DNA of 60,792 bases. Source: Candidatus Aminicenantes bacterium. Its GTDB lineage: Bacteria > Acidobacteriota > Aminicenantia > Aminicenantales > Saccharicenantaceae. The stretch is taken from contig PNJE01000075.1 in the NCBI GenBank assembly GCA_002877915.1, positions 1 through 60,792 on the forward strand, given 5' to 3'. A model generated the notes under the pieces. That model did no database searches. It was not told the origin of the DNA and worked only from the letters and a program-made list of their open reading frames with translations. This document shows, piece by piece, positions 33,065 to 46,941 of the stretch; within the stretch, counting starts at the first letter, position 1; every line of letters starts with the position of its first letter. A program made the translations under genes and the position numbers.

Positions 33065-33298
33065 ATGATTGGGATTGGTGAATTAATAATAATTTTGGTT
33101 TTATTCCTGGGCATTCCTCAATTCATTCTGTTCATCGTCGCGCTGGTAGATATCCTGAAAAGTGAGTTCCCCGGCAATGACAAACTAATCTGGATTCTTT
33201 TGATAATCTTCCTCCCACTTCTGGGACCGATTCTTTATTTTCTCATCGGCCGAAAAAATAAGATTCAGCCGCCGTCAGCTTATAAGCCAACCACTTGA
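33065..33298 (+). CDS. Small PLDc_N-domain membrane protein
   Basis: ALVDILKS...KLIWILLIIFLPLLGPILYFLIGR two-helix hairpin; AAGGAG RBS. Confidence 0.8.
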   Translation: MIGIGELIIILVLFLGIPQFILFIVALVDILKSEFPGNDKLIWILLIIFLPLLGPILYFLIGRKNKIQPPSAYKPTT

Positions 33299-35024: not shown

Positions 35025-36380
35025 TTATTTTCCCTCTTTTATCCCTTTTTTCGACTGATGAGCAAACAAGAAATAACTAATTTCAATTATAAATATGACA
35101 AAAAGGAGAGCGGGTACCAAGTTGGAGCGGCCAAAAAATAGTCCAAAAATAAAAATCAGAATCAGACTCAGGAAAGCCAGCAGTAAAAACAACAGCCAGA
35201 GGATTTTGAACCGGTTGGAGAAATCTGATTTCAATATATCAACTAAGGCTACCAGCCAGAAAATAAAGAAAAGTAAATAGACCGCCAAAAATAAAAATGC
35301 TATGGCCGGGGTACCAGACCCTCCTCTATATTTTACTCCATCAACTGCGGTTACCTTTCTTTCTGAGGCATTGAATCGCTTTAAATCGGCAATATTATCA
35401 AGCCTGACCAGCCCGCCCGAGTCTGAGAACAGGACATAAAGATTATTTTCCTTTAAAAAAATCTTTGGGGAACTTTGAACTTGCAAAAATTCCAGAGCTT
35501 TGTCTTTTTCGGCCAGTCCAACTGAATTTTGAGTAGTATAAATTAATCCAGCTGAGGAACTGAATTGAAGATCTTCAATATTTTTTTGCTCTGGATGTTC
35601 ATACCAGAGTTCAGGCTGATTATTTCCTTGAGCCAGCCGGTAAATCTTATTATCGCGCGCCAGAAAAGTGGTCAGGCCATCCCCACTGATTGCTTGAATC
35701 AGGCCCCATCCTGGTTCTTCTAAGTTAATTTTTTCGGTTACCAAAACCGGCTCAAAAATTAAGGTAGCCCTGGAATCGTCAGGACTTGTTGATATTTTTT
35801 CTGATTTTAGGCAGTATATAACCTGCTGAATATACCGGGGTGAATTATCCAGCCAGCTTCGGTTAATCAGGAAATAAACACAATTGTCTCCCCGAAACAT
35901 TCTTCCATTAACCGTATAATCGGCCCCCTCCCCTGCTTCGGGCATTGAAGCTATCGGCTGAAAAGGAAATAAGGGCAGGCCAGTCTCATCATCATAATTC
36001 AGTTCCTTTACTGGAGAGATAAACCCAAAATCACTTTCGGTCGAAAATAATAACAGCCCTGAATTTAGATGAAAAAAATCCTGAAAAGGAACGGTCAGCC
36101 GGCCACTATATTGCTTAACCGGGTTGATTAATATCCGATTTCCCAAAGCTATCAGGGGCACTCCATCTCCATCCACTGAAAAATTAATTTTATCTCTATA
36201 TTCTTCCCTCAGAGCTGGATCCATCGGCGGCAAGACCCAGTTTAACTTGACCTGAGAATTTTCTGGCAAAATCAGTAACACCCCCCGCAGGACTTCCACT
36301 TCTTGGCTCCAAGCTGAAAAATGAAAGACAACCAGAAATAAGACACTAAAGAAAAGATATTTAATTTTATTTTTTTTCAT
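35025..36380 (-). CDS. Hypothetical protein: signal peptide, extracytoplasmic beta-rich domain, C-terminal PLDc_N-like TM bundle
   Basis: 451-aa ORF in an operon (2-bp and 11-bp gaps); C-terminal LVALVDILKSDF..KILWLL. Confidence 0.7.
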   Translation of the reverse strand: MKKNKIKYLFFSVLFLVVFHFSAWSQEVEVLRGVLLILPENSQVKLNWVLPPMDPALREEYRDKINFSVDGDGVPLIALGNRILINPVKQYSGRLTVPFQDFFHLNSGLLLFSTESDFGFISPVKELNYDDETGLPLFPFQPIASMPEAGEGADYTVNGRMFRGDNCVYFLINRSWLDNSPRYIQQVIYCLKSEKISTSPDDSRATLIFEPVLVTEKINLEEPGWGLIQAISGDGLTTFLARDNKIYRLAQGNNQPELWYEHPEQKNIEDLQFSSSAGLIYTTQNSVGLAEKDKALEFLQVQSSPKIFLKENNLYVLFSDSGGLVRLDNIADLKRFNASERKVTAVDGVKYRGGSGTPAIAFLFLAVYLLFFIFWLVALVDILKSDFSNRFKILWLLFLLLAFLSLILIFIFGLFFGRSNLVPALLFVIFIIEISYFLFAHQSKKGIKEGK

Positions 36381-36382
36381 GG

Positions 36383-37672
36383 CTAATTCTTGTTCTCTTT
36401 CGACTTATCTTTGATCTGATCACCTAATCCCACCCAATCAGCCACTGACTTCTGGCCGGTATTCATATCTTTATAGTACTCGTCCCAGTTAAATTTGACC
36501 TCTTCCCCGCCCATGGATTTCAGGAAATTATTTAATTCTCCAAAAAACTTATTAACTGCCCCAAAAGTTACTTGACTGTAGACTGATTTAAAAACGCTGA
36601 TATTCATTGAGGTCAGAGGAGTAACCACTTTCCCGGCAATGAAATCGACTGTCTCTGAAATTGCTCCGGGGATGTCTTTTTGTCTTAGCTTCATGGTGAT
36701 CTTGGAGATTCCAACGGCGTTTTCACAGGTCATCAGACCACGTTTTTTACCAGTCAGGTTTATAGCTTCAGTGGCCATTTGGCCAGTTTCATCAATGGCT
36801 TGTTGAGTTCCGGCCTCTATATTGGCTTCGACCAGATTCCCTACCATTTCAGTTGGTAATGGTGGGGGAACTTTTTCCTTTTTTTTCTTCAATTCACCTG
36901 TTTCCGGAAAGCCTAAAACTGGAACCTCTTTTTCTGGCTTTTTTACCTGGATCAGCAGACGAAGCTTTTCTCTTTCTTCTTGAGACAAGCCCGGGGAATA
37001 AATGGCCTTCTGCCACAGGGCATTTCTGGCCTTAAGCAATTCAAAAAATCTCTGGGCTTCTTCATCAGAAGAAAAAGGAATCCGAGAATAAAGTTCTTCA
37101 ATTTCATTCTGATAGTTTCTGAAGCTATTCCATTCTTTCTGAGTAAGCCCGGCAATCCTGGCTTCTGGGGCTGGCTGAACCGGAGCCTCCGTAGATGGAG
37201 AAGTTTCGTTCTGGGGTTGAGTTACCGGAGGGAGAGGCGGAGGGTTTACCGGAGTATTGGGTGTGGGTGTAGGCTGGGGTTGAGGAGGAGAGTAAACTGG
37301 CGGTCTGGCAGCTTGAGATCTAAGGTAATCGGCCCGATTTCTTTTTTCTCTGGCTTGATCCTCCAGTACCTGAGCAATTTTTTCAGCCTCCTGATATGAC
37401 ACCAGCGCCCGTGCCCCATGTTCCCATTCAATACGCACCTGGCAATCAGGAGATTGTGGAGTTATTCTCTGCCGGCAATTCTCTACTGCTCTTCTCAAAA
37501 TGGCAGCCTTATTTTCCAGGTCAGCCGCCTCCCTCAGGAGCTGCTCAATTTCATCTGATTGAATATTCGGGGTGCCTGATTCGAACCGCGCAGTTGGCTG
37601 CCCAGTATTTACCAGAAACAGGAGAAAAAAGCCAAAAAAACAGATTATTACCCTAATTTTGGTTGAATTCAT
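36383..37672 (-). CDS. Hypothetical exported protein with coiled-coil N-domain and Pro-rich linker
   Basis: 429 aa; signal peptide, helical segment with a Cys pair, and PPQPQPTPTPNTPVNPPPLPP linker; 20 bp downstream of the His-repeat gene. Confidence 0.7.
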   Translation of the reverse strand: MNSTKIRVIICFFGFFLLFLVNTGQPTARFESGTPNIQSDEIEQLLREAADLENKAAILRRAVENCRQRITPQSPDCQVRIEWEHGARALVSYQEAEKIAQVLEDQAREKRNRADYLRSQAARPPVYSPPQPQPTPTPNTPVNPPPLPPVTQPQNETSPSTEAPVQPAPEARIAGLTQKEWNSFRNYQNEIEELYSRIPFSSDEEAQRFFELLKARNALWQKAIYSPGLSQEEREKLRLLIQVKKPEKEVPVLGFPETGELKKKKEKVPPPLPTEMVGNLVEANIEAGTQQAIDETGQMATEAINLTGKKRGLMTCENAVGISKITMKLRQKDIPGAISETVDFIAGKVVTPLTSMNISVFKSVYSQVTFGAVNKFFGELNNFLKSMGGEEVKFNWDEYYKDMNTGQKSVADWVGLGDQIKDKSKENKN

Positions 37673-37692: not shown

Positions 37693-38232
37693 TTAACCTA
37701 TTTCCGGGCCGGGTCGGTTGGCATGCTCGACATTAGTATGAGGTTCATTGGTGTGGGGATTATCGGTGTGAGGATTATCGGCGTGCCCTTCGACATTTTG
37801 ATTGGTATGGATTTCGGTATTCGTGTGCTCAAAACCCTGGGGCTGCATATTGACATGCTTACTTTCGTTGATGTGGTTATTAAGATGCTTATCGGTATGC
37901 AGGACATTTTGATGGGCAGTATTCTTATGCGGAACGTTATTATGGGCCAGCTCACTGGCAATCACCTTAGCTGCTTTTCTGGCAGATAAAACACCTGCCC
38001 CATCGGCTTTATCTCCAACCAGGTTTTTAAGCCCGGCTGCTCGGCCTTCTTGTTTGAGCCAAGGCCAGGCCATAAGTAAAGCGGCGCCCTTAATCGCCAT
38101 TCCCAGAATCTGACGGCGGCTTTTTTCCGGCCTGGGTTCAACCAGGTCAACCGGATAGTCGGGCAGAGAAGGACTAAGGCGATCAATGGTCTTAAGCGAC
38201 TTTTTACCCTGGAATAGATTCCTTAACTTCAT
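37693..38232 (-). CDS. His-Xaa-Asn/Asp repeat protein, putative RiPP precursor
   Basis: AGGAGG RBS; SRRQILG plus a hydrophobic stretch; residues 97-172 contain 14 H-x-[N/D] triplets; 31 bp downstream of a radical SAM/SPASM gene. Confidence 0.8.
   Translation of the reverse strand: MKLRNLFQGKKSLKTIDRLSPSLPDYPVDLVEPRPEKSRRQILGMAIKGAALLMAWPWLKQEGRAAGLKNLVGDKADGAGVLSARKAAKVIASELAHNNVPHKNTAHQNVLHTDKHLNNHINESKHVNMQPQGFEHTNTEIHTNQNVEGHADNPHTDNPHTNEPHTNVEHANRPGPEIG
37750..37785. repeat. Tandem 15-bp repeat encoding DNPHT units
   Basis: GGTGTGGGGATTATC / GGTGTGAGGATTATC / GGCGTG on the + strand. Confidence 0.85.
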
Positions 38233-38263
38233 TAGGCCTCCTTTTTGCCCGAGTATAAACTAT

Positions 38264-39805
38264 TTAAATTATATTTTCAAGAAAATTAGCTTCTGGATCT
38301 TTTAGATAGTTTTTATAATAGCCTATCAGATTAATAAGGTCTGGATTTTCAGCCGTTTTCCACATCAATTCTTCAAACACCCGACGGTAAAAGTGGCACA
38401 TCGGATCTTCATGAAAAATATCTCCAAAAAATTCAAATGATTTATTGAGGCAACCTGAGCCGTGAAACCGACGCCAGGGACAGGTACGGCATTTTTTAAT
38501 ATTTTCTACCTTTCTCTGTTGCTGAATCTGCTGATTTATTTCCGACTCAACCAGAAGCTGGGGCAGAGGTTTCGGGTCATCAATTGTTCCTAAGCAAAAT
38601 TCATCTTTACCCACCAGTTCTTCACAGGGATAAATCTGCCCGTCATAGCCAAAACCTAAAATAGAGTTCCCGGCTCCGCAAGGCGCCCGGTAGCACATTT
38701 GTGGCCTGGATTTATCGGCTAAGTGGGCGATAAAAAGATTTAGGTCGTCCACACTAAGCCAATAACCGGTTTCTCGGTGGTAATCAATGGCCAGGTCCAC
38801 CAGCTTGAGCCAGTGTTCAACAAAAAGCTCTGCCCGGTCAACCTCAAAATTAAACCCCTTTTTTGCCCGTCCTTCATAGCATAAAAAATTAAGACGAAAA
38901 GAACGGCTATCAAGGTTTTCGATAAAAAATTTAGCCACTTCCACATAATTTTGCGGATCGGAAATAACTGCCAAAAGTCCTGGATTTAAACCCAATTTCC
39001 TTGCCCGGCGCAAACCTTCAATTACCTCACCAAAAGACCCTCGGCCGGAAGCAAAAACCCGTTGTCGATTATGAATGGCTTCTGGTCCATCGAGACTGAG
39101 GCCGACTTCAATTTTTAATTCTTTTAATAGTTCTGAATATCTGGTAAGCAAAACTCCATTAGTCTGAAGGGATAAGGTCAACTTTTTCTTTAGGGCTGAA
39201 GCTAATTCTCGGGCATACTTTGCTCCGGCAACCAAACAATCGATATTAGTCAGTGGTTCTCCACCGTGAAAGCCGATAATAACTTTTTCTCTGGGAATCT
39301 CTTCCAGCACCCGGCGGATAATCTTTTTGACGGTCTCAACAGACATTAATTCCCGGTCGTTGGCTTCATGATCGCACCGGCAGTAGCGGCAGGCTAAATT
39401 GCAGGATTCAGCAATATGAATATTGAAATAATGGGGATACTGCTGAACAGCCCATAGATTCGAAGACTGATAATAGGTCTGGCCGTTTAGAGTAATCATA
39501 TTGCGAAGGAAAAGAGAATAAAGCCACCAGTCAATTTCGTTCTGATTGAAGCTTTGGTCCAGTTCATAGATTTCCGCCAAGCTCTTCCAGCTCCTTTCAT
39601 TAGTTCCAGGCCTTAAAATCTTACTTCGGAGCAGGAAGCCCCGGCTGGCAGCTTGTAGAATTATCCAGGAAGCTGATTCTGGCTCTACTACCAGGGTCCG
39701 GGTATTGCGAGTGGAAAAATAAAGATCGGGCACCGAAGTAATGATCGCCTCTGGCGTCAAGACTTTTTTAAACTCAGAAAATTCAAGCTTCTTAGAACTC
39801 ATCAT
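38264..39805 (-). CDS. Radical SAM/SPASM-domain peptide maturase
   Basis: CNLACRYC (CxxxCxxC), FHGGEPL, LQTNG and SLDG; SPASM region CYRAPCGAG...GQIYPC...CRTC...GC...C; ~120-aa N-terminal extension. Confidence 0.9.
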   Translation of the reverse strand: MMSSKKLEFSEFKKVLTPEAIITSVPDLYFSTRNTRTLVVEPESASWIILQAASRGFLLRSKILRPGTNERSWKSLAEIYELDQSFNQNEIDWWLYSLFLRNMITLNGQTYYQSSNLWAVQQYPHYFNIHIAESCNLACRYCRCDHEANDRELMSVETVKKIIRRVLEEIPREKVIIGFHGGEPLTNIDCLVAGAKYARELASALKKKLTLSLQTNGVLLTRYSELLKELKIEVGLSLDGPEAIHNRQRVFASGRGSFGEVIEGLRRARKLGLNPGLLAVISDPQNYVEVAKFFIENLDSRSFRLNFLCYEGRAKKGFNFEVDRAELFVEHWLKLVDLAIDYHRETGYWLSVDDLNLFIAHLADKSRPQMCYRAPCGAGNSILGFGYDGQIYPCEELVGKDEFCLGTIDDPKPLPQLLVESEINQQIQQQRKVENIKKCRTCPWRRFHGSGCLNKSFEFFGDIFHEDPMCHFYRRVFEELMWKTAENPDLINLIGYYKNYLKDPEANFLENII

Positions 39806-40896
39806 TATTTCTCAAACTTGAGGAATCCGGACATAAATAGAGAGAAAATAAAGCTAATGGCCTCACCTCCATATTTCTTCTTTAGGCTTTTAAGAGTTTT
39901 CTTCCGATCGAGCTCCCTAATTATCTCATAACCCTTCGAGGTTACGGCCAGACCGTCCAGCCCCTTAATCAGGGTGGCTCCTTGTTTTTCTTCCCTCACC
40001 CGAAAAAGAGGAATCGGCTTTAAATCAGACTCGATTAAAAATGGCTTTTCACCAGCGACAGGCAACAGCAGCTGCTTTCTTTTTTCGGCTACATTTTCCA
40101 GGCATAGCTCTATTTCTTCTGACCCCCAACTTTCAAATATTTCTTTCAGGCGGTCTTTTAAAATATTTCCTTCTGGAAAACGGGATTTTCGGCAGGGATA
40201 GATATGGCCATCAGCAGAAATAAAACAAGAGCCCTGAGCTCCCCGGCAGGAAATTTCGGGCAGCCAGAGCTCCGGATTGATTTCAGGAAAACAATCTTCA
40301 AAGACCAAAGGTAACAATCTGTCTTTATAATTGGCAATGAGACTGGAGAATTCTGAAGCCCGATTAAGGCTGTGACCAATTTTTTTTCTCAAATAAACCG
40401 AAGCCGAAGTTTCTAAAAAAACCCTGTCCAGAAGTTTCTTCAGGCTGGAAATCTCTGTTCGGCAATCTATCTCCACCACCGCCCTGGTCCTGAAGCTGGA
40501 ATTTTCCGCTAACTTAAGTTCGTCCAATCTAACTTCGACTTTTTCTTCTGGTTCGGAGGCTTCAATGATTATTCCCAGTTCATCCAGTTTCTTCAGGTGC
40601 CTTAATCCCCACAAGGCAGAGCGAGGATCTTCTCCCAGGTTTCTTACATAAATAACCAAATTAAAATCACCCGGCTGGTCATCAAGTTTTTGTAGCCACT
40701 CAGCAAAAGAAGGAAGTTTGAAACAATCAAATTCTATCTGAAGGGAAAAAACTTCCGATAGCTCTCGAGAGACAATTTCATCAGCCAGTCCAGTATTTTC
40801 CTTAACCTCAATCCGGAAAACAAATGGGCTCAGTTTATCCAGCTGGTGGTTAGTTTTTTTGCTTTCCCTGATTGAGTTTCCGTTTCTCTTTATCAT
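39805..40896 (-). CDS. Degenerate radical-SAM-like protein with SPASM/Twitch Cys cluster and C-terminal PqqD/RRE-like domain
   Basis: No CxxxCxxC motif. Contains CRGAQGSCFISADGHIYPC..GNI and ends in a beta-strands-plus-helices segment (LAVTSKGYEIIRELD..KTLKSL..FIFSLFMSGFL). TAATG-coupled to the rSAM gene. Confidence 0.65.
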   Translation of the reverse strand: MIKRNGNSIRESKKTNHQLDKLSPFVFRIEVKENTGLADEIVSRELSEVFSLQIEFDCFKLPSFAEWLQKLDDQPGDFNLVIYVRNLGEDPRSALWGLRHLKKLDELGIIIEASEPEEKVEVRLDELKLAENSSFRTRAVVEIDCRTEISSLKKLLDRVFLETSASVYLRKKIGHSLNRASEFSSLIANYKDRLLPLVFEDCFPEINPELWLPEISCRGAQGSCFISADGHIYPCRKSRFPEGNILKDRLKEIFESWGSEEIELCLENVAEKRKQLLLPVAGEKPFLIESDLKPIPLFRVREEKQGATLIKGLDGLAVTSKGYEIIRELDRKKTLKSLKKKYGGEAISFIFSLFMSGFLKFEK

Positions 40897-43642: not shown

Positions 43643-46600
43643 TTACTTTTTCGGATAAGGCGGAACAGCCGGCATTTTCGGCTCGTTGGTCTTCAGCTGT
43701 TCCATTATTACCTCAATAGCTTTGTTCAGCTGTTCATCTACTCCTTCATATTCCTTGGCTGGGTCGTTATCCACATAAATATCAGGCTCAACTCCCTCCC
43801 CTTCAATTATCCACTGTCCCTGCAAACTATATGGGGCAAATTCCGGCTTGTTAAGATAACCGCCATCAATTATCGGCAGGCTTCCCCGAATTCCTATAAC
43901 TCCGCCCCAGGTTCTTTTGCCAATAAGTTTTCCCAGCTGGTAATGCCGGAAGCGATAAGGGAAAATGTCTCCATCAGAAGCAGAAAATTCATTAATCAAG
44001 CAAACCTTGGGTCCCATGATAAGAGCCGCTGGATCCCATCTGGGTATCGACCCCCGGGCAATCTCAACAAAGGCGGCCTGCCGGGCTAATCTTTCGATTA
44101 ACATTGGAGAAACATTTCCGCCTCCATTTCCCCGCACATCAACGATGATGGCTTTTTTGTCTCTTTGCGGATAAAAATGTTTTACAAATTCATTGAGACC
44201 ACTGACCCCCATATCTGGAACATGAATATAAGCCACCTGACCGTTGGTCGCTTTCTCTACCAGTTGAGTGTTAGTCCTTACCCAGTTGTAATAATATAGG
44301 CTATTTTCTCGGGCAATCGGAACAACCACTATTTGACGGGCGCCTTTTTCCACCGGTTGAGAATTTATTTTAAGAGTTACCTGTTTACCAGCTGTATTTA
44401 AAAGCAACTCGTAAATGTCCTTAACTTCATTTACCGGCTTTCCATTAACCGCCAAAATATAATCTCCTTCCTTAACGTTCAGCCCTACCTCGGTCAGAGG
44501 CGAACGCAATTCTGGGTCCCAGTTCTGTCCTTCAAGTATTTTCTCGATCCGATAAAAGCCAGTATTTTTATCACGTTCCAATTTGGCTCCTAACCGACCT
44601 ACCGAAATCCGCTCGATCTTGGGTAAATCACCACCTCCAACATACGTATGGCCGCAGTTGAGCTCTCCGATCATCTCTCCAATGACATAGGTTAGATCGG
44701 CCCGGTGATTAACCGATTTAGCCAGGGGTTCGTATTGGAGCCTGACCTTTTCCCAATCAACCCCGTTCATATTGGGGGCATAAAAGAAATACTTCATCTG
44801 GCGCCAACATTCGTTAAAGATCTCCACCCATTCAGCCCGACGGTCGAGCGTCATTTCGAGGCCGCTCAAATCGAGCTTTTGTTCAATCTTCAGAGGGGCC
44901 ACAGGCAGATCAATGATGGCATAATCTTTTCCCTGAGCCACCAGCATTTTTTTCTGGTCAGCGGAAATTATATAACCAGAAACCTTGCCCAGTTCTTTTT
45001 CTTCCTTTTTAGAAAGATCATAATATTCGAGAACGCTCTGCCGATCGGTTAGAGATCTTCTAAGAAAATAGAGTTTATCTCCTACTGAGGTTAGAGCAAA
45101 ATAATTAGCCACCTCGACTGGCAAGGCCACAATCCTATCCTTGAGCCCGGCTTCATCCACTCGGACAGTTACTTTTTCTGCTGCCGGTTTTTCAGCCGCC
45201 GGCTTCTCTTTTTCTGTTTTTCCTGCTTTGATTGGCTCAACCGCCGGGGCAATTTTCACCTCATCGCTTTTTGGTTCGAAAGGCGATTTGACTCCGGCAT
45301 TTAAGGTTACCAGGTAAATCCTGGACATTGAAAGATAAGCATGGTCAAACTCGGTTCGGCTATAAACCGGATTAAAATCGCGATCAGAAACAAAGAACAG
45401 GTACTGCCCATCTGAGCTAAAGCAGGGTGAATAGGAAGAATACCAATAATCGGTCGCCTCGATCGTCTTTCCAGTGGTCAAGTTATAAAGGTAAATTTTA
45501 TCTACATAGTTTATTTCCTGCTGGGAATAGGCAATCCAGTTGGAATCAGGAGACCAGGCATAATCGTGAATTTCCCAGACTTTTCCCTTAGCCACCTCCA
45601 CCACTTGCTTTTTATCGAGATCAAAATAACGGAGGCGGAACAGCCGGTCTGACCAAAGGATTTTTTTGCTATCGGGTGACCAGCTGAGGGAATATAAGTA
45701 GGTATCTGAATTAGAGGTCAGCTGGGTCGGTGGAGCGGAGCCATCCTGGGGCAGGAGATAAATTTCATCTCGGCCACTTTTATCAGAAATGAAGGCAATC
45801 CACCGGCCGTCAGGGGACCAAGCAGGTTCGCGCTCATGAACTCCGGAAGTATTGGTAAGATTGCGGGTATTGCCGTTTTTGGCCGGAACAGTAAAAATTT
45901 CTCCCCGGGCTTCAAAAAGAGCCCGGGAGCCAGATCGGCACCAGCGATCATCTCTGAAACCTTGACCAGCTCGGTGCGGGAACCGATTTGATCATCGGCT
46001 ATATAAACTGGAATTTTATTTACTTTTTCTGTGGCTAAATCCAGCTTATAAAGATAGCCGCCGTTTTCGAAAATAATGGCCTCAGGTCCAAGAGAAGGAA
46101 ACTTGATATCATAATCTTTAAAATCAGTTACCTTCCTGGTTTCCTTGGTCTTCAGATCATAGACATAAATATTGAAGCGCTTGTTTTCGTCCCGATCAGA
46201 CAAAAAGTAAATTCGATCGCCGCTCCACATCGGGATAATGTCTGAAGCTGGATTATTGGTTATATTTTCTGTTTTCTTGGTCTTAAAATCATATATCCAG
46301 ATATCATCAACCATCCCCCCACGATATCTTTTCCAGGTGCGAAATTCCCGGAAGATGCGATTGAAGGCCAGCTTAGAGCCATCGGGAGAATAGGAACAGA
46401 ATCCTCCCCGGGGTAAGGGCAATTCTTCAGGAGTTCCCCCTTCTTTTGGAACCAAATAAAGATGTCCATTGAAGTCATTCCACTCGGCCATCCGGGAACG
46501 GAAAATAATATTCCGGCCATCAGGAGTCCAGCCCATGACAATATTGTTTGGCCCCATCCGGTCAGATATATCATCGCGAGTTAAAACAGGGGTATAAGTC

Positions 46601-46941
46601 AGGCGAACCGGCACTCCCCCTTCGGCTGGCATAAGATAAACCTCGCGGTTGCCATCGTATTCGGCTGTAAAGGCTAAATATTTTCCATCAGGAGAAAAAC
46701 GAGCAAAAGCTTCATAGCCAGGGTGAGAAGTTAATTTTCGAGCCACCCCGCCAGAGGCTGGAACAGTATACAAGTCTCCGCCATAAGAAAAGACAACCGT
46801 ATCTTTATAAATGGCTGGAAAACGGAGCACCCGGGCTTCTTCACTCGAAGCCATTAGAGGCAGGCCTGAAAAGCTTATAATTAAAATTAAAAAAATTACT
46901 GGCCAGAACCAACTAAGCCCTCTCTTGGCTATAGTTTTCAT
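43643..46941 (-). pseudogene. Tricorn protease (S41B, beta-propellers plus PDZ) split by a frameshift near 45920-45932
   Basis: ORF 45718..46941 has the signal peptide and first propeller (LRFPAI, FSPDG repeats); ORF 43643..45604 has PDZ and S41 motifs (DVRGNGGG, SASDGD, RTWGG). The frame of the second ORF is open and tricorn-like (RALFEARGEIFTVPAKNG..WSPDG) from ~45925. Confidence 0.88.

What the first reader, a model, noticed from the sequence alone, without database searches (positions are those of the whole stretch)
38035..38232. Precursor has a twin-arginine-like signal and the cluster lacks a dedicated peptidase or ABC exporter
Seen in sequence: residues 38-66 read SRRQILGMAIKGAALLMAWPWLKQEGRAA, i.e. 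S-R-R-x-I-L, a hydrophobic stretch and an AxA-like end, preceded by a 37-aa n-region. No ABC/PCAT transporter or leader peptidase lies in the operon. Established knowledge: Tat exports folded substrates. Inference: the rigidified, crosslinked polypeptide is exported whole by Tat and may act as a periplasmic or surface metal-binding or structural protein rather than a cleaved small antibiotic.
Basis: partly seen in the sequence, partly recalled or inferred. Interest (0 to 1): 0.7.

Follow-up and report, generated by a model that had tools for sequence, protein, structure and literature searches.

The report
Tat-like export signal on rSAM-modified protein
A small histidine-repeat protein that sits next to a radical-SAM modifying enzyme carries a long N-terminal extension, made of a conserved docking-like motif and then a twin-arginine-type export signal with a signal-peptidase site. 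This would let the cell's general export machinery replace the dedicated transporter and protease that peptide natural products usually need.

Summary
Residues 38-66 of the 179-aa ORF (window 37693-38232, minus strand) read SRRQILGMAIKGAALLMAWPWLKQEGRAA.

For a Tat-type signal:
- S-R-R is invariant in 23 distinct Aminicenantes/Saccharicenans homologues, although five different Arg codons are used.
- More canonical forms (SRRQFF, TRRHFL, SRRHFL, RRTFWK, TRRRFF) recur in distant lineages.
- A maturase tree puts RR as ancestral, with at least two losses.
- The hydrophobic stretch is weak, like Tat signals. It is followed by basic residues and a family-wide A-x-A site.

The conserved core is five genes: a SPASM-only partner, the rSAM/SPASM enzyme, the precursor, a 429-aa anchored protein and a 451-aa beta-propeller membrane protein. 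It holds no ABC exporter or peptidase.

Against a Tat-type signal:
- RR lies at residues 39-40, later than in typical Tat signals.
- The uncharged run is only 11-13 residues and contains a conserved Lys.
- One sub-clade has HR or no RR.
- The His-repeat domain is predicted disordered.

Best reading (about 0.55): a bipartite leader that combines a maturase-docking motif with a Tat-type signal and is removed by signal peptidase I. The closest precedents are the HXS antiphage effector HxsA and the bufferins. I rate it a new variant of a known kind.

The parts
37693..38232 (-). Precursor gene, 179 aa. N-terminal leader plus signal (residues 1-65), then a predicted mature part (66-179) with 14 His-x-Asn/Asp motifs.
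   Evidence: ORF list. 17 homologues in the word-index protein search and 23 distinct sequences in all. Always lies directly downstream of the rSAM gene.
38237..38242 (-). Shine-Dalgarno AGGAGG, 4 nt before the ATG at 38232.
   Evidence: Read directly from the sequence.
38143..38178 (-). Conserved n-region motif, residues 19-30 (L-S-P-S-L-P-D-Y-P-V-D-L). L23 and L30 are invariant; P24, P27 and V28 are at least 90% conserved. Proposed maturase (RRE) docking site.
   Evidence: Alignments A1 and A4. The motif L-S/T-P-x-L-P-x-x-P-V is kept even in lineages that lack RR. The docking role is inference.
38113..38121 (-). S38-R39-R40, the twin-arginine motif (SRRQIL).
   Evidence: Invariant in 23 of 23 distinct homologues. 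Arg codons seen are CGG, CGC, CGT, AGG and AGA.
38056..38112 (-). h-region, residues 41-59 (QILGMAIKGAALLMAWPWL). Weakly hydrophobic, with near-invariant K48 and P57.
   Evidence: Best 10-residue Kyte-Doolittle (KD) window is 1.70. Hydrophobic moment (muH) 0.15 and mean Eisenberg hydrophobicity 0.58, like the TorA and SufI h-regions. AF2 helix 39-54, pLDDT 82-88.
38038..38055 (-). c-region, residues 60-65 (KQEGRA). Basic residues, then a small-x-small site. Predicted signal peptidase I cut after A65.
   Evidence: R64-A65 are nearly invariant. A/S/G-R-A or A-K-A appears at the same aligned place across most of the family. Cleavage is inferred.
37696..38037 (-). Predicted mature exported protein, residues 66-179. 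The His-x-Asn/Asp array runs from H97 to N172 (37717-37944). No Cys.
   Evidence: AF2 gives helices 61-75 and 84-97; the array is disordered.
38264..39805 (-). Radical SAM/SPASM peptide maturase, 513 aa, with a ~125-residue N-terminal extension.
   Evidence: Pfam Radical_SAM, Fer4_12 and SPASM. Below the cut-off of every named NCBIfam maturase; HxsB scores 138.7 against 370. Closest solved relatives are CteB 5WGG and anSME.
39805..40896 (-). SPASM-only partner protein, 363 aa, with no CxxxCxxC motif. Its C-terminal part looks like a PqqD/RRE domain by eye.
   Evidence: Pfam finds SPASM only. Present in all 13 Aminicenantes loci. No Pfam PqqD match, so the RRE assignment is unconfirmed.
36383..37672 (-). 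Co-conserved 429-aa protein: N-terminal hydrophobic anchor or signal, coiled coil, Pro-rich linker, helical C-terminal domain.
   Evidence: Present in every Aminicenantes locus whose sequence extends that far. A relative lies next to the Holophagaceae and L086 precursors. No family or PDB match.
35025..36380 (-). Co-conserved 451-aa protein: Sec-type signal, beta-propeller, three C-terminal membrane helices.
   Evidence: AF2 pLDDT 78. Foldseek hits are generic propellers. Syntenic in 12 of 13 loci, the thirteenth being truncated.
33065..33298 (+). Small PLDc_N membrane protein on the opposite strand. Recurs near the cluster in other loci.
   Evidence: Pfam PF13396, E=8.6e-14. Neighbourhoods.

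Best explanation
The first 65 residues of the 179-aa precursor form a bipartite leader.

1. Residues about 19-30 carry a family-wide motif (L-S/T-P-x-L-P-x-x-P-V-x-L). It most likely docks the precursor on the cytoplasmic maturase pair, the rSAM/SPASM enzyme plus the SPASM-only partner.
2. Residues 38-65 form a twin-arginine-type signal peptide: S-R-R-Q-I-L, a weak Gly/Ala-rich h-region ending in Pro, basic c-region residues, and G/A-R-A.

Proposed sequence of events:
- The enzymes modify the His-x-Asn/Asp array in the cytoplasm. By analogy, these are His-to-X3 crosslinks of the triceptide type.
- Maturase binding next to the RR motif holds back export until modification is done.
- The Tat system then translocates the product.
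- Signal peptidase I cuts after A65 and removes the recognition motif and signal together.

This explains why the cluster needs neither a leader peptidase nor an ABC/PCAT exporter. The mature protein of about 114 aa then acts in the envelope together with the two co-conserved envelope proteins.

Shown: motif, conservation, synteny, signal-like physico-chemistry. Inferred: Tat dependence, cleavage site, docking role, crosslink chemistry, function.
For: - S-R-R is invariant in 23 distinct sequences that are 51-75% identical. Five Arg codons are used and K never appears.
- In three variants the conserved Lys sits at the canonical +5 position (SRRQTLK).
- Distant precursors beside homologous maturases carry even more canonical motifs: SRRQFF, TRRHFL, SRRHFL, LRRTFWK, RRALLK, TRRRFF.
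- In the maturase tree the His-repeat clade (support 87/94) has RR throughout the Aminicenantes branch and basally in the sister branch, so RR is ancestral with at least 2 losses.
- h-region hydrophobicity (best 10-residue Kyte-Doolittle (KD) window, mean 1.98) falls in the range of E. coli Tat signals (1.82). It is far below the Sec signals of neighbouring genes in the same window (2.78-3.42).
- The segment is not amphipathic.
- Basic c-region residues and an A-x-A site are conserved family-wide.
- The five-gene core has no peptidase or transporter. The 451-aa protein is a membrane-anchored beta-propeller.
- Precedents: HxsA, whose signal peptide is needed for periplasmic localisation and antiphage activity and which is matured by rSAM enzymes (PMC13128918); and bufferins, which are Sec-signal RiPPs without dedicated exporters (PMC12452194).
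- An unchecked note reports a DUF362 protein with an MDRRDFIRNLF leader in the same genome.
Against: - It is also beyond the 35-residue limit of TATFIND as I recall that rule.
- The longest uncharged run is 11-13 residues (16 in the K+5 variants), against 13-24 in the Tat set. A near-invariant Lys interrupts the h-region.
- One short-precursor sub-clade has HR or no twin arginine, and so does the Holophagaceae locus. Tat routing is therefore not obligatory for this kind of product.
- The mature domain is predicted disordered, so there is no fold that would demand Tat.
- Other basic positions (K48, K103, K125, R85) are equally invariant.
- Presence of tatA/tatC in this genome could not be tested.
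- The Pfam and NCBIfam Tat-signal models gave no hit. The control shows this test is uninformative.
Confidence: 0.55

Rival explanations
1. This is an ordinary Sec-type signal peptide. The two arginines only supply the positive n-region charge, or belong to the maturase recognition sequence. The modified but still flexible polypeptide is threaded through SecYEG and cut by signal peptidase I, as in bufferins and probably HxsA.
For: - Sister lineages of the same precursor family have HR, KR or no twin arginine, yet keep the hydrophobic segment and the A-x-A site.
- The mature domain is predicted disordered.
- Known signal-bearing RiPP-like substrates use Sec or an unspecified signal.
- Both the RR position and the short h-run are atypical for Tat.
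Against: - There is not one R-to-K change at either position in 23 sequences, although several other basic columns mix K and R.
- The flanks match the Tat consensus (S/T-R-R-x-Phi-Phi, K at +5 in variants), and this recurs in lineages about 25% identical.
- In the Aminicenantes clade the h-region is much weaker and shorter than the Sec signals of the same window. It carries a Lys, and basic 'Sec-avoidance'-type residues sit in the c-region.
Confidence: 0.25
2. The segment is an uncleaved N-in/C-out signal anchor. The leader stays in the cytoplasm and the His-repeat array is displayed on the outer face of the inner membrane, inserted by Tat, Sec or YidC.
For: - The n-region has a net positive charge (+1 to +8).
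- A 19-residue hydrophobic helix is predicted with high confidence.
- Some distant homologues have long, very hydrophobic segments (P0020 has 27 uncharged residues) or a poor -3/-1 site (P0018).
- Both partner proteins are membrane-anchored.
Against: - The conserved small-x-small site with a basic c-region sits at the same aligned place in most lineages.
- A conserved Lys and Pro lie inside a segment only 19 residues long, and hydrophobicity is too low for a stable membrane helix in the Aminicenantes clade.
Confidence: 0.12
3. This is not an export signal. The hydrophobic helix is part of a long RiPP leader that binds the maturase, and the product stays in the cytoplasm or leaves through an unlinked transporter after cleavage by an unlinked protease.
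For: - RiPP leaders are often helical and bound by RRE domains.
- The n-region motif is conserved together with the helix.
- No Tat machinery has been demonstrated.
Against: - The segment is uniformly hydrophobic, not amphipathic (muH 0.15).
- The n-h-c layout with Pro and A-x-A is kept even where the sequence has diverged completely.
- The two co-conserved downstream proteins carry N-terminal signals or anchors.
- The HXS precedent shows the signal is needed for periplasmic function.
Confidence: 0.05

Closest known systems
HXS antiphage system (HxsA/HxsB/HxsC/HxsD; Li et al., Nat Commun 2026, PMC13128918)
   Same: - A small protein with an N-terminal signal peptide and C-terminal His-x-X repeats.
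- It is matured in the cytoplasm by rSAM/SPASM enzymes plus a partner.
- It acts as a protein in the periplasm.
- It has no dedicated ABC exporter.
- The window's rSAM has HxsB among its best NCBIfam matches (E=2.3e-40).
   Different: - None of the HxsA, HxsB, HxsC or HxsD models is met.
- X3 is Asn/Asp rather than Ser, and there are 14 repeats rather than 5.
- The partner lacks the rSAM CxxxCxxC motif, so there is one active rSAM enzyme, not two.
- There is no peptidoglycan-binding domain.
- The signal is preceded by a 37-residue conserved n-region and carries a twin-arginine motif.
- Two extra envelope genes are co-conserved.
- The lineage is Aminicenantes, not Pseudomonadota (99.7% of HXS systems).
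Bufferins and oxazolins (MNIO-modified RiPPs with Sec signal peptides; PMC11626156, PMC12452194)
   Same: - Precursors of up to protein size carry a general-secretion signal in place of a classical leader.
- Their clusters carry no dedicated exporter genes in the descriptions I read.
- Modification must come before export.
- The signal is thought to be part of what the modifying complex recognises.
   Different: - Different enzyme class (MNIO plus DUF2063 partner, not rSAM/SPASM).
- Cys-based chemistry, whereas this precursor has no Cys.
- Sec-type signals; no Tat signal is mentioned in that survey.
Tat signal peptides with cytoplasmic proofreading chaperones (TorA/TorD, DmsA/DmsD, NapA/NapD; established knowledge)
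   Same: An S/T-R-R-x-Phi-Phi motif, a weakly hydrophobic h-region, a basic c-region, A-x-A cleavage, and an n-region or signal bound by a cytoplasmic partner until maturation is complete.
   Different: Here the matured feature would be peptide crosslinks rather than a cofactor, and the proposed binder is the maturase itself. RR lies unusually far from the N-terminus and the h-region is short and contains a Lys.
His-containing triceptides (HaaB, HtkB; His-C2 to X3-C-beta cyclophanes; PMC11499958)
   Same: Repeated Omega1-X2-X3 motifs with His at position 1, modified by an rSAM/SPASM enzyme. Multiple His-x-x motifs per precursor are known.
   Different: No signal, export or transporter is mentioned in that paper (0 occurrences). 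The window's maturase scores below the cut-offs of the cyclophane-synthase NCBIfam models. No chemistry has been shown here.
Anaerobic sulfatase-maturating enzymes and their exported sulfatases (anSME/AtsB; established knowledge)
   Same: An rSAM/SPASM enzyme modifies a signal-bearing protein substrate in the cytoplasm before general export. anSME is among the closest solved relatives by sequence.
   Different: There it is a single Cys/Ser-to-formylglycine conversion in a large folded enzyme, not a repeat array. The NCBIfam anSME score is 128 against 349.

Membership tests
Twin-arginine (Tat) signal peptide | Consensus (S/T)-R-R-x-Phi-Phi(-K) at the n/h boundary | tested here: met
   S-R-R-Q-I-L in the window. 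SRRQ[AITV]L in 23 of 23 homologues. SRRQTLK in three variants.
Twin-arginine (Tat) signal peptide | RR close to the N-terminus (within about 35 residues in TATFIND, as I recall the rule) | tested here: not met
Twin-arginine (Tat) signal peptide | Moderately hydrophobic h-region, less hydrophobic than Sec signals, with at least about 13 uncharged residues | tested here: inconclusive
   Hydrophobicity is in the Tat range (best 10-residue KD window 1.98 vs 1.82; Sec neighbours 2.78-3.42). The uncharged run is only 11-13 residues (16 in the K+5 variants).
Twin-arginine (Tat) signal peptide | Basic residue(s) in the c-region and an A-x-A signal peptidase I site | tested here: met
   K/R at positions 60-61 and R64. 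G/A/S-R-A at 63-65, aligned with A-K-A or A-R-A in distant lineages.
Twin-arginine (Tat) signal peptide | Match to curated Tat-signal models (PF10518; TIGR01409) | tested here: inconclusive
   No hit at E<=10. In the Pfam control, TorA also gives no hit and SufI scores only 15.4 bits against a 22.7 cut-off. No control was run for the NCBIfam model.
Twin-arginine (Tat) signal peptide | tatA/tatC present in the same genome; export depends on RR | not testable with these tools
tblastn with E. coli TatA/TatC found nothing in the window and the roughly 85 loci held at that point, which says nothing about the rest of the genome.
HXS system (HxsABCD) | HxsA effector (TIGR03979) with His-x-Ser repeats and a peptidoglycan-binding domain | tested here: not met
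   The precursor has no NCBIfam or Pfam hit. Its repeats are His-x-Asn/Asp.
HXS system (HxsABCD) | Two rSAM maturases, HxsB (TIGR03978) and HxsC, plus HxsD | tested here: not met
   HxsB scores 138.7 bits against a 370 cut-off. The partner matches SPASM only and has no CxxxCxxC. No HxsD-type hit appears among the cluster proteins.
HXS system (HxsABCD) | Signal peptide on the rSAM substrate, and no dedicated transporter | tested here: met
   This is a resemblance in logic only.
Triceptide (three-residue cyclophane) RiPPs | Repeated aromatic/His-X2-X3 motifs next to an rSAM/SPASM maturase | tested here: met
   All 14 His residues are followed by x-N/D. The maturase has Radical_SAM and SPASM domains.
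Triceptide (three-residue cyclophane) RiPPs | Maturase belongs to a characterised cyclophane-synthase family (YhhB, FxsB, GrrM/OscB, AmcB models) | tested here: not met
   Scores of 82-110 bits against cut-offs of 310-445.
Triceptide (three-residue cyclophane) RiPPs | C-C crosslink between ring and X3 C-beta (-2 Da per motif) | not testable with these tools
   Needs co-expression and MS/NMR.
Bufferin-type signal-peptide RiPPs | MNIO (DUF692) enzyme with a DUF2063 partner, and Cys motifs in the precursor | tested here: not met
   No such domains in the cluster, and the precursor has no Cys. This is an analogue only.

The most novel reading that the evidence does not exclude
A family of rSAM-crosslinked His-repeat proteins uses a composite leader in which the maturase-docking motif is built into the n-region of a Tat signal peptide. 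Maturase binding then acts as the proofreading step before Tat export, and one signal peptidase I cut removes both leader and signal. That would be the first Tat-routed RiPP-like product. It would also be a general way for large modified peptides to do without dedicated proteases and exporters, possibly feeding an envelope machine built with the beta-propeller and coiled-coil partners (an HXS-like barrier or a metal-handling array).
Probability: 0.4. Interest if true: 0.75.

Novelty: new variant of a known kind. Interest (0 to 1): 0.55.

Why it matters
RiPP biology normally assumes a leader peptidase and a dedicated exporter. Only recently were Sec-signal precursors (bufferins) and a signal-bearing rSAM-matured protein effector (HxsA) described.

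A Tat-type signal fused behind a maturase recognition motif would extend that logic to the pathway that checks substrates before export. It offers a testable model for how modification is finished before translocation, and it would flag a whole family for genome mining that standard RiPP rules miss. That family spans Aminicenantes, Holophagaceae, a MAG labelled Rhizomicrobium, and many unbinned metagenome contigs.

It also defines a compact leader (residues 1-65) that could be tested as a portable tag meaning 'modify, then export'.

Tried and rejected
This is uninformative for the rest of the genome.
- **Pfam TAT_signal and NCBIfam Tat-signal models** on the leader at E<=10: no hit. I rejected this as evidence because the TorA control also fails and SufI is sub-threshold.
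- **Scan of all held Aminicenantes sequence for other canonical Tat leaders:** only the precursors themselves turned up.
- **Literature on Tat in Aminicenantes/Saccharicenans, and on Tat or twin-arginine signals on RiPP or SPASM substrates:** nothing relevant. The Saccharicenans genome paper is not held.
- **PADLOC:** only generic viperin-like rSAM similarity.
- **PDB sequence search for the 429- and 451-aa proteins:** nothing.
- **Pfam PqqD/RRE** in the partner's C-terminus and the rSAM N-terminus: no hit, so the RRE assignment stays an inference.
- **Amphipathic-helix reading of residues 39-59:** rejected (muH 0.15).
- **Expected link between loss of RR and higher hydrophobicity in distant lineages:** not found.
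- **rSAM relatives at 42% identity or less (L024-L049, L102-L128):** they have no His-repeat ORF downstream and were treated as outgroups.
Full report
**1. What is there**

The finding's coordinates (38035-38232, minus strand) are exactly codons 1-66 of a 179-aa ORF at 37693-38232.
- The ATG at 38232 has AGGAGG 4 nt upstream, and the gene starts 31 nt after the stop of a 513-aa radical SAM/SPASM gene.
- The protein begins with a 37-residue n-region.
- Next come S38-R39-R40-Q-I-L, a hydrophobic stretch (GMAIKGAALLMAWPWL), then K-Q-E-G-R-A-A.
- The C-terminal part contains 14 histidines, each followed by x-Asn/Asp. There is no cysteine.

**2. Is it more than chance?**

A word-index search of 5.8 billion proteins found 17 homologues, all Aminicenantes/Saccharicenans, 51-67% identical. 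S-R-R is invariant in all of them, while the surrounding n-region varies.
- Genome and metagenome loci add further sequences, giving 23 distinct ones with R-R in 23 of 23 and never K.
- In 14 distinct DNA versions the two Arg codons vary among CGG, CGC, CGT, AGG and AGA. The conservation is therefore at the protein level.
- Several other basic columns mix K and R, but a few (K48, K103, K125, R85) are as invariant as RR. Invariance alone is therefore suggestive, not decisive.

**3. The wider family**

A profile search of 1.8 billion representatives, genome and metagenome scans seeded with the maturase, contig look-ups and a profile search with a diverse precursor alignment recovered about 22 further precursors only about 20-35% identical. 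All of those whose contig extends upstream lie directly downstream of a homologous rSAM gene.

All keep the same layout (alignment A4):
- an n-region motif L-S/T-P-x-L-P-x-x-P-V-x-L;
- roughly eight residues;
- a basic n/h boundary;
- a hydrophobic segment ending in Pro;
- in most, a small-x-small site (A-R-A, A-K-A, A-x-G).

Twin-arginine status at the n/h boundary:

| Status | Sequences | Motif |
|---|---|---|
| RR | L086/L100 | SRRQFF |
| RR | L101 | TRRHFL |
| RR | P0018 | SRRHFL |
| RR | P0021 | IRRILF |
| RR | L088/P0097 | LRRTFWK |
| RR | P0108 | LRRAFWK |
| RR | P0109 | RRALLK |
| RR | P0112 | TRRRFF |
| KR | P0020, P0111 | |
| HR | P0100, P0103 | |
| none | one sub-clade (PGLRxxLLGSAG) and the Holophagaceae locus L022 | |

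On a maximum-likelihood tree of the maturases, the His-repeat-associated enzymes form one clade (support 87/94).
- The Aminicenantes branch is entirely RR.
- In the sister branch RR is basal, with at least two losses.

The simplest reading is an ancestral twin-arginine signal that some lineages have given up.

**4. Does it look like a Tat signal in physico-chemical terms?**

For:
- The best 10-residue Kyte-Doolittle window of the close homologues averages 1.98.
- The segment is uniformly hydrophobic, not amphipathic (muH 0.15, mean H 0.58, like the TorA and SufI h-regions).
- AlphaFold2 models it as a confident helix (residues 39-54, pLDDT 82-88).
- Basic residues sit in the c-region.
- In three variants the conserved Lys moves from +9 to the canonical +5 position (SRRQTLK).

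Against:
- RR is at residues 38-46, later than in the comparison set (3-25).
- The longest uncharged run is 11-13 residues (16 in the K+5 variants), against 13-24.
- A near-invariant Lys sits inside the h-region.

The Pfam and NCBIfam Tat-signal models gave no hit. The control shows the Pfam model also misses TorA and scores SufI below threshold, so this test says nothing.

**5. The cluster**

In 13 of 13 Aminicenantes loci the core is SPASM-only partner (363 aa), rSAM/SPASM (513 aa), precursor, 429-aa protein and 451-aa protein. A small PLDc_N membrane gene often lies nearby on the other strand.
- No ABC/PCAT transporter or peptidase is conserved.
- The M28 peptidase, the split tricorn protease, the Mrp/ApbC ATPase and the DUF4139 gene seen in the window are mostly not syntenic elsewhere.
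- The 451-aa protein folds (pLDDT 78) as a Sec signal, a beta-propeller and three C-terminal membrane helices. Only generic propeller matches were found.
- The 429-aa protein has an N-terminal anchor, a coiled coil and a Pro-rich linker, with no family or PDB match.

Both partners are envelope proteins, which fits an extracytoplasmic destination for the precursor.

The rSAM enzyme is below the cut-off of every named maturase model; DynA, PapB, CbpB and HxsB score best. Its closest solved relatives are CteB and anSME.

**6. Mechanism proposed**

Residues 1-65 form a bipartite leader.
- The family-wide n-region motif is the best candidate for maturase (RRE) docking, because it is kept even where RR is lost.
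- The RR/h/c part is an export signal.
- rSAM chemistry needs the cytoplasm, so modification must come before export. A maturase bound right next to the RR motif would delay engagement of the translocase, as Tat proofreading chaperones do (established knowledge) and as has been suggested for bufferin signal peptides (PMC12452194).
- After translocation, signal peptidase I would cut after A65 (G-R-A in the window, A-R-A in most homologues). That removes leader and signal together and releases a protein of about 114 aa.

This explains the missing peptidase and exporter. The docking role, Tat dependence, cleavage and crosslink chemistry are inferences.

**7.

- The His-repeat domain is predicted disordered (pLDDT about 43).
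- Close relatives of the RR-bearing short precursors have HR or no RR.

Tat is therefore not demanded by the nature of the product. 'Exported whole' should read 'exported after removal of a 65-residue leader/signal'.

**8. Comparison with known systems**

- **HXS antiphage system (PMC13128918).** This is the closest precedent. [quoted passage not shown] It is matured by the rSAM enzymes HxsB and HxsC with HxsD, and works in the periplasm. Removing the signal abolishes localisation and defence. The present system fails every HXS membership model. It also differs in repeat type and number, in having a single active rSAM plus a SPASM-only partner, in the two extra envelope genes, in lineage and in signal type.
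- **Bufferins.** These are the precedent for RiPP precursors with general-secretion signals.
- **His-containing triceptides (HAA, HNR, HTK motifs).** These are the chemical precedent for His-x-X crosslinks.
- **Literature search.** No paper in the held library links a twin-arginine signal to an rSAM/SPASM substrate or to a RiPP.

**9. Verdict**

An export signal is very likely (about 0.85). Tat routing in the Aminicenantes clade is more likely than not (about 0.55-0.6), but it is atypical and unverified. I rate it a new variant of a known kind, of moderate to high interest.

Noticed in passing
window 43643-45604 and 45718-46941 (minus strand): A tricorn-type protease is split into two adjacent ORFs. 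The 407-aa ORF holds PD40 beta-propeller repeats. The 653-aa ORF holds Tricorn_C1, the tricorn PDZ domain and Peptidase_S41. This could be a frameshift, a pseudogene or an assembly error.
   Followed up: partly
window 35025-35300 (C-terminus of the 451-aa protein) and 33065-33298 (+): The C-terminal membrane helices of the beta-propeller protein carry a VALVDILKS-type motif like that of the small PLDc_N protein. That small protein recurs on the opposite strand near the cluster in many loci, which suggests a functional pairing.
   Followed up: partly
P0019, P0022, P0023: Large proteins of 590-890 aa carry very long arrays of the pentapeptide (A/P)-H-x-(D/N)-x and match the precursor profile. 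The same five-residue His spacing occurs in the precursor, which raises the possibility of a shared metal-binding or fibre-like repeat fold independent of rSAM chemistry.
   Followed up: no
L026 7534-7609 (and the same translated string in L024-L040): The more distant rSAM relatives (37-42% identity, no His-repeat ORF) are followed by a tRNA-Arg(ACG) gene. That gene explains the recurring pseudo-peptide GGTRTPSLLVRSQTLYPLSYGH seen in the ORF scans.
   Followed up: partly
window 38252-38280 (minus strand): A promoter-like site (TTGAAA, 17 nt, TATACT; 10 of 12 matches) lies in the last codons of the rSAM gene, just upstream of the precursor. It could give the precursor its own higher expression. 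Such sites are not enriched over shuffles in this region.
   Followed up: no
L022 9075-9737 (minus strand): In the Holophagaceae locus, a 220-aa multi-pass membrane protein with an HEACH (HExxH-like) motif lies just past the cluster on the opposite strand. It may be a membrane metalloprotease. It was seen only in this locus.
   Followed up: no
P0112: One distant precursor (222 aa) has an extra N-terminal membrane helix ahead of the docking motif and a TRRRFF signal. This is a different topology from the rest of the family.
   Followed up: no
window 38119-38121 and homologous loci: The Ser before RR is always encoded by AGC in 14 distinct DNA versions, while both Arg codons vary freely.
   Followed up: no
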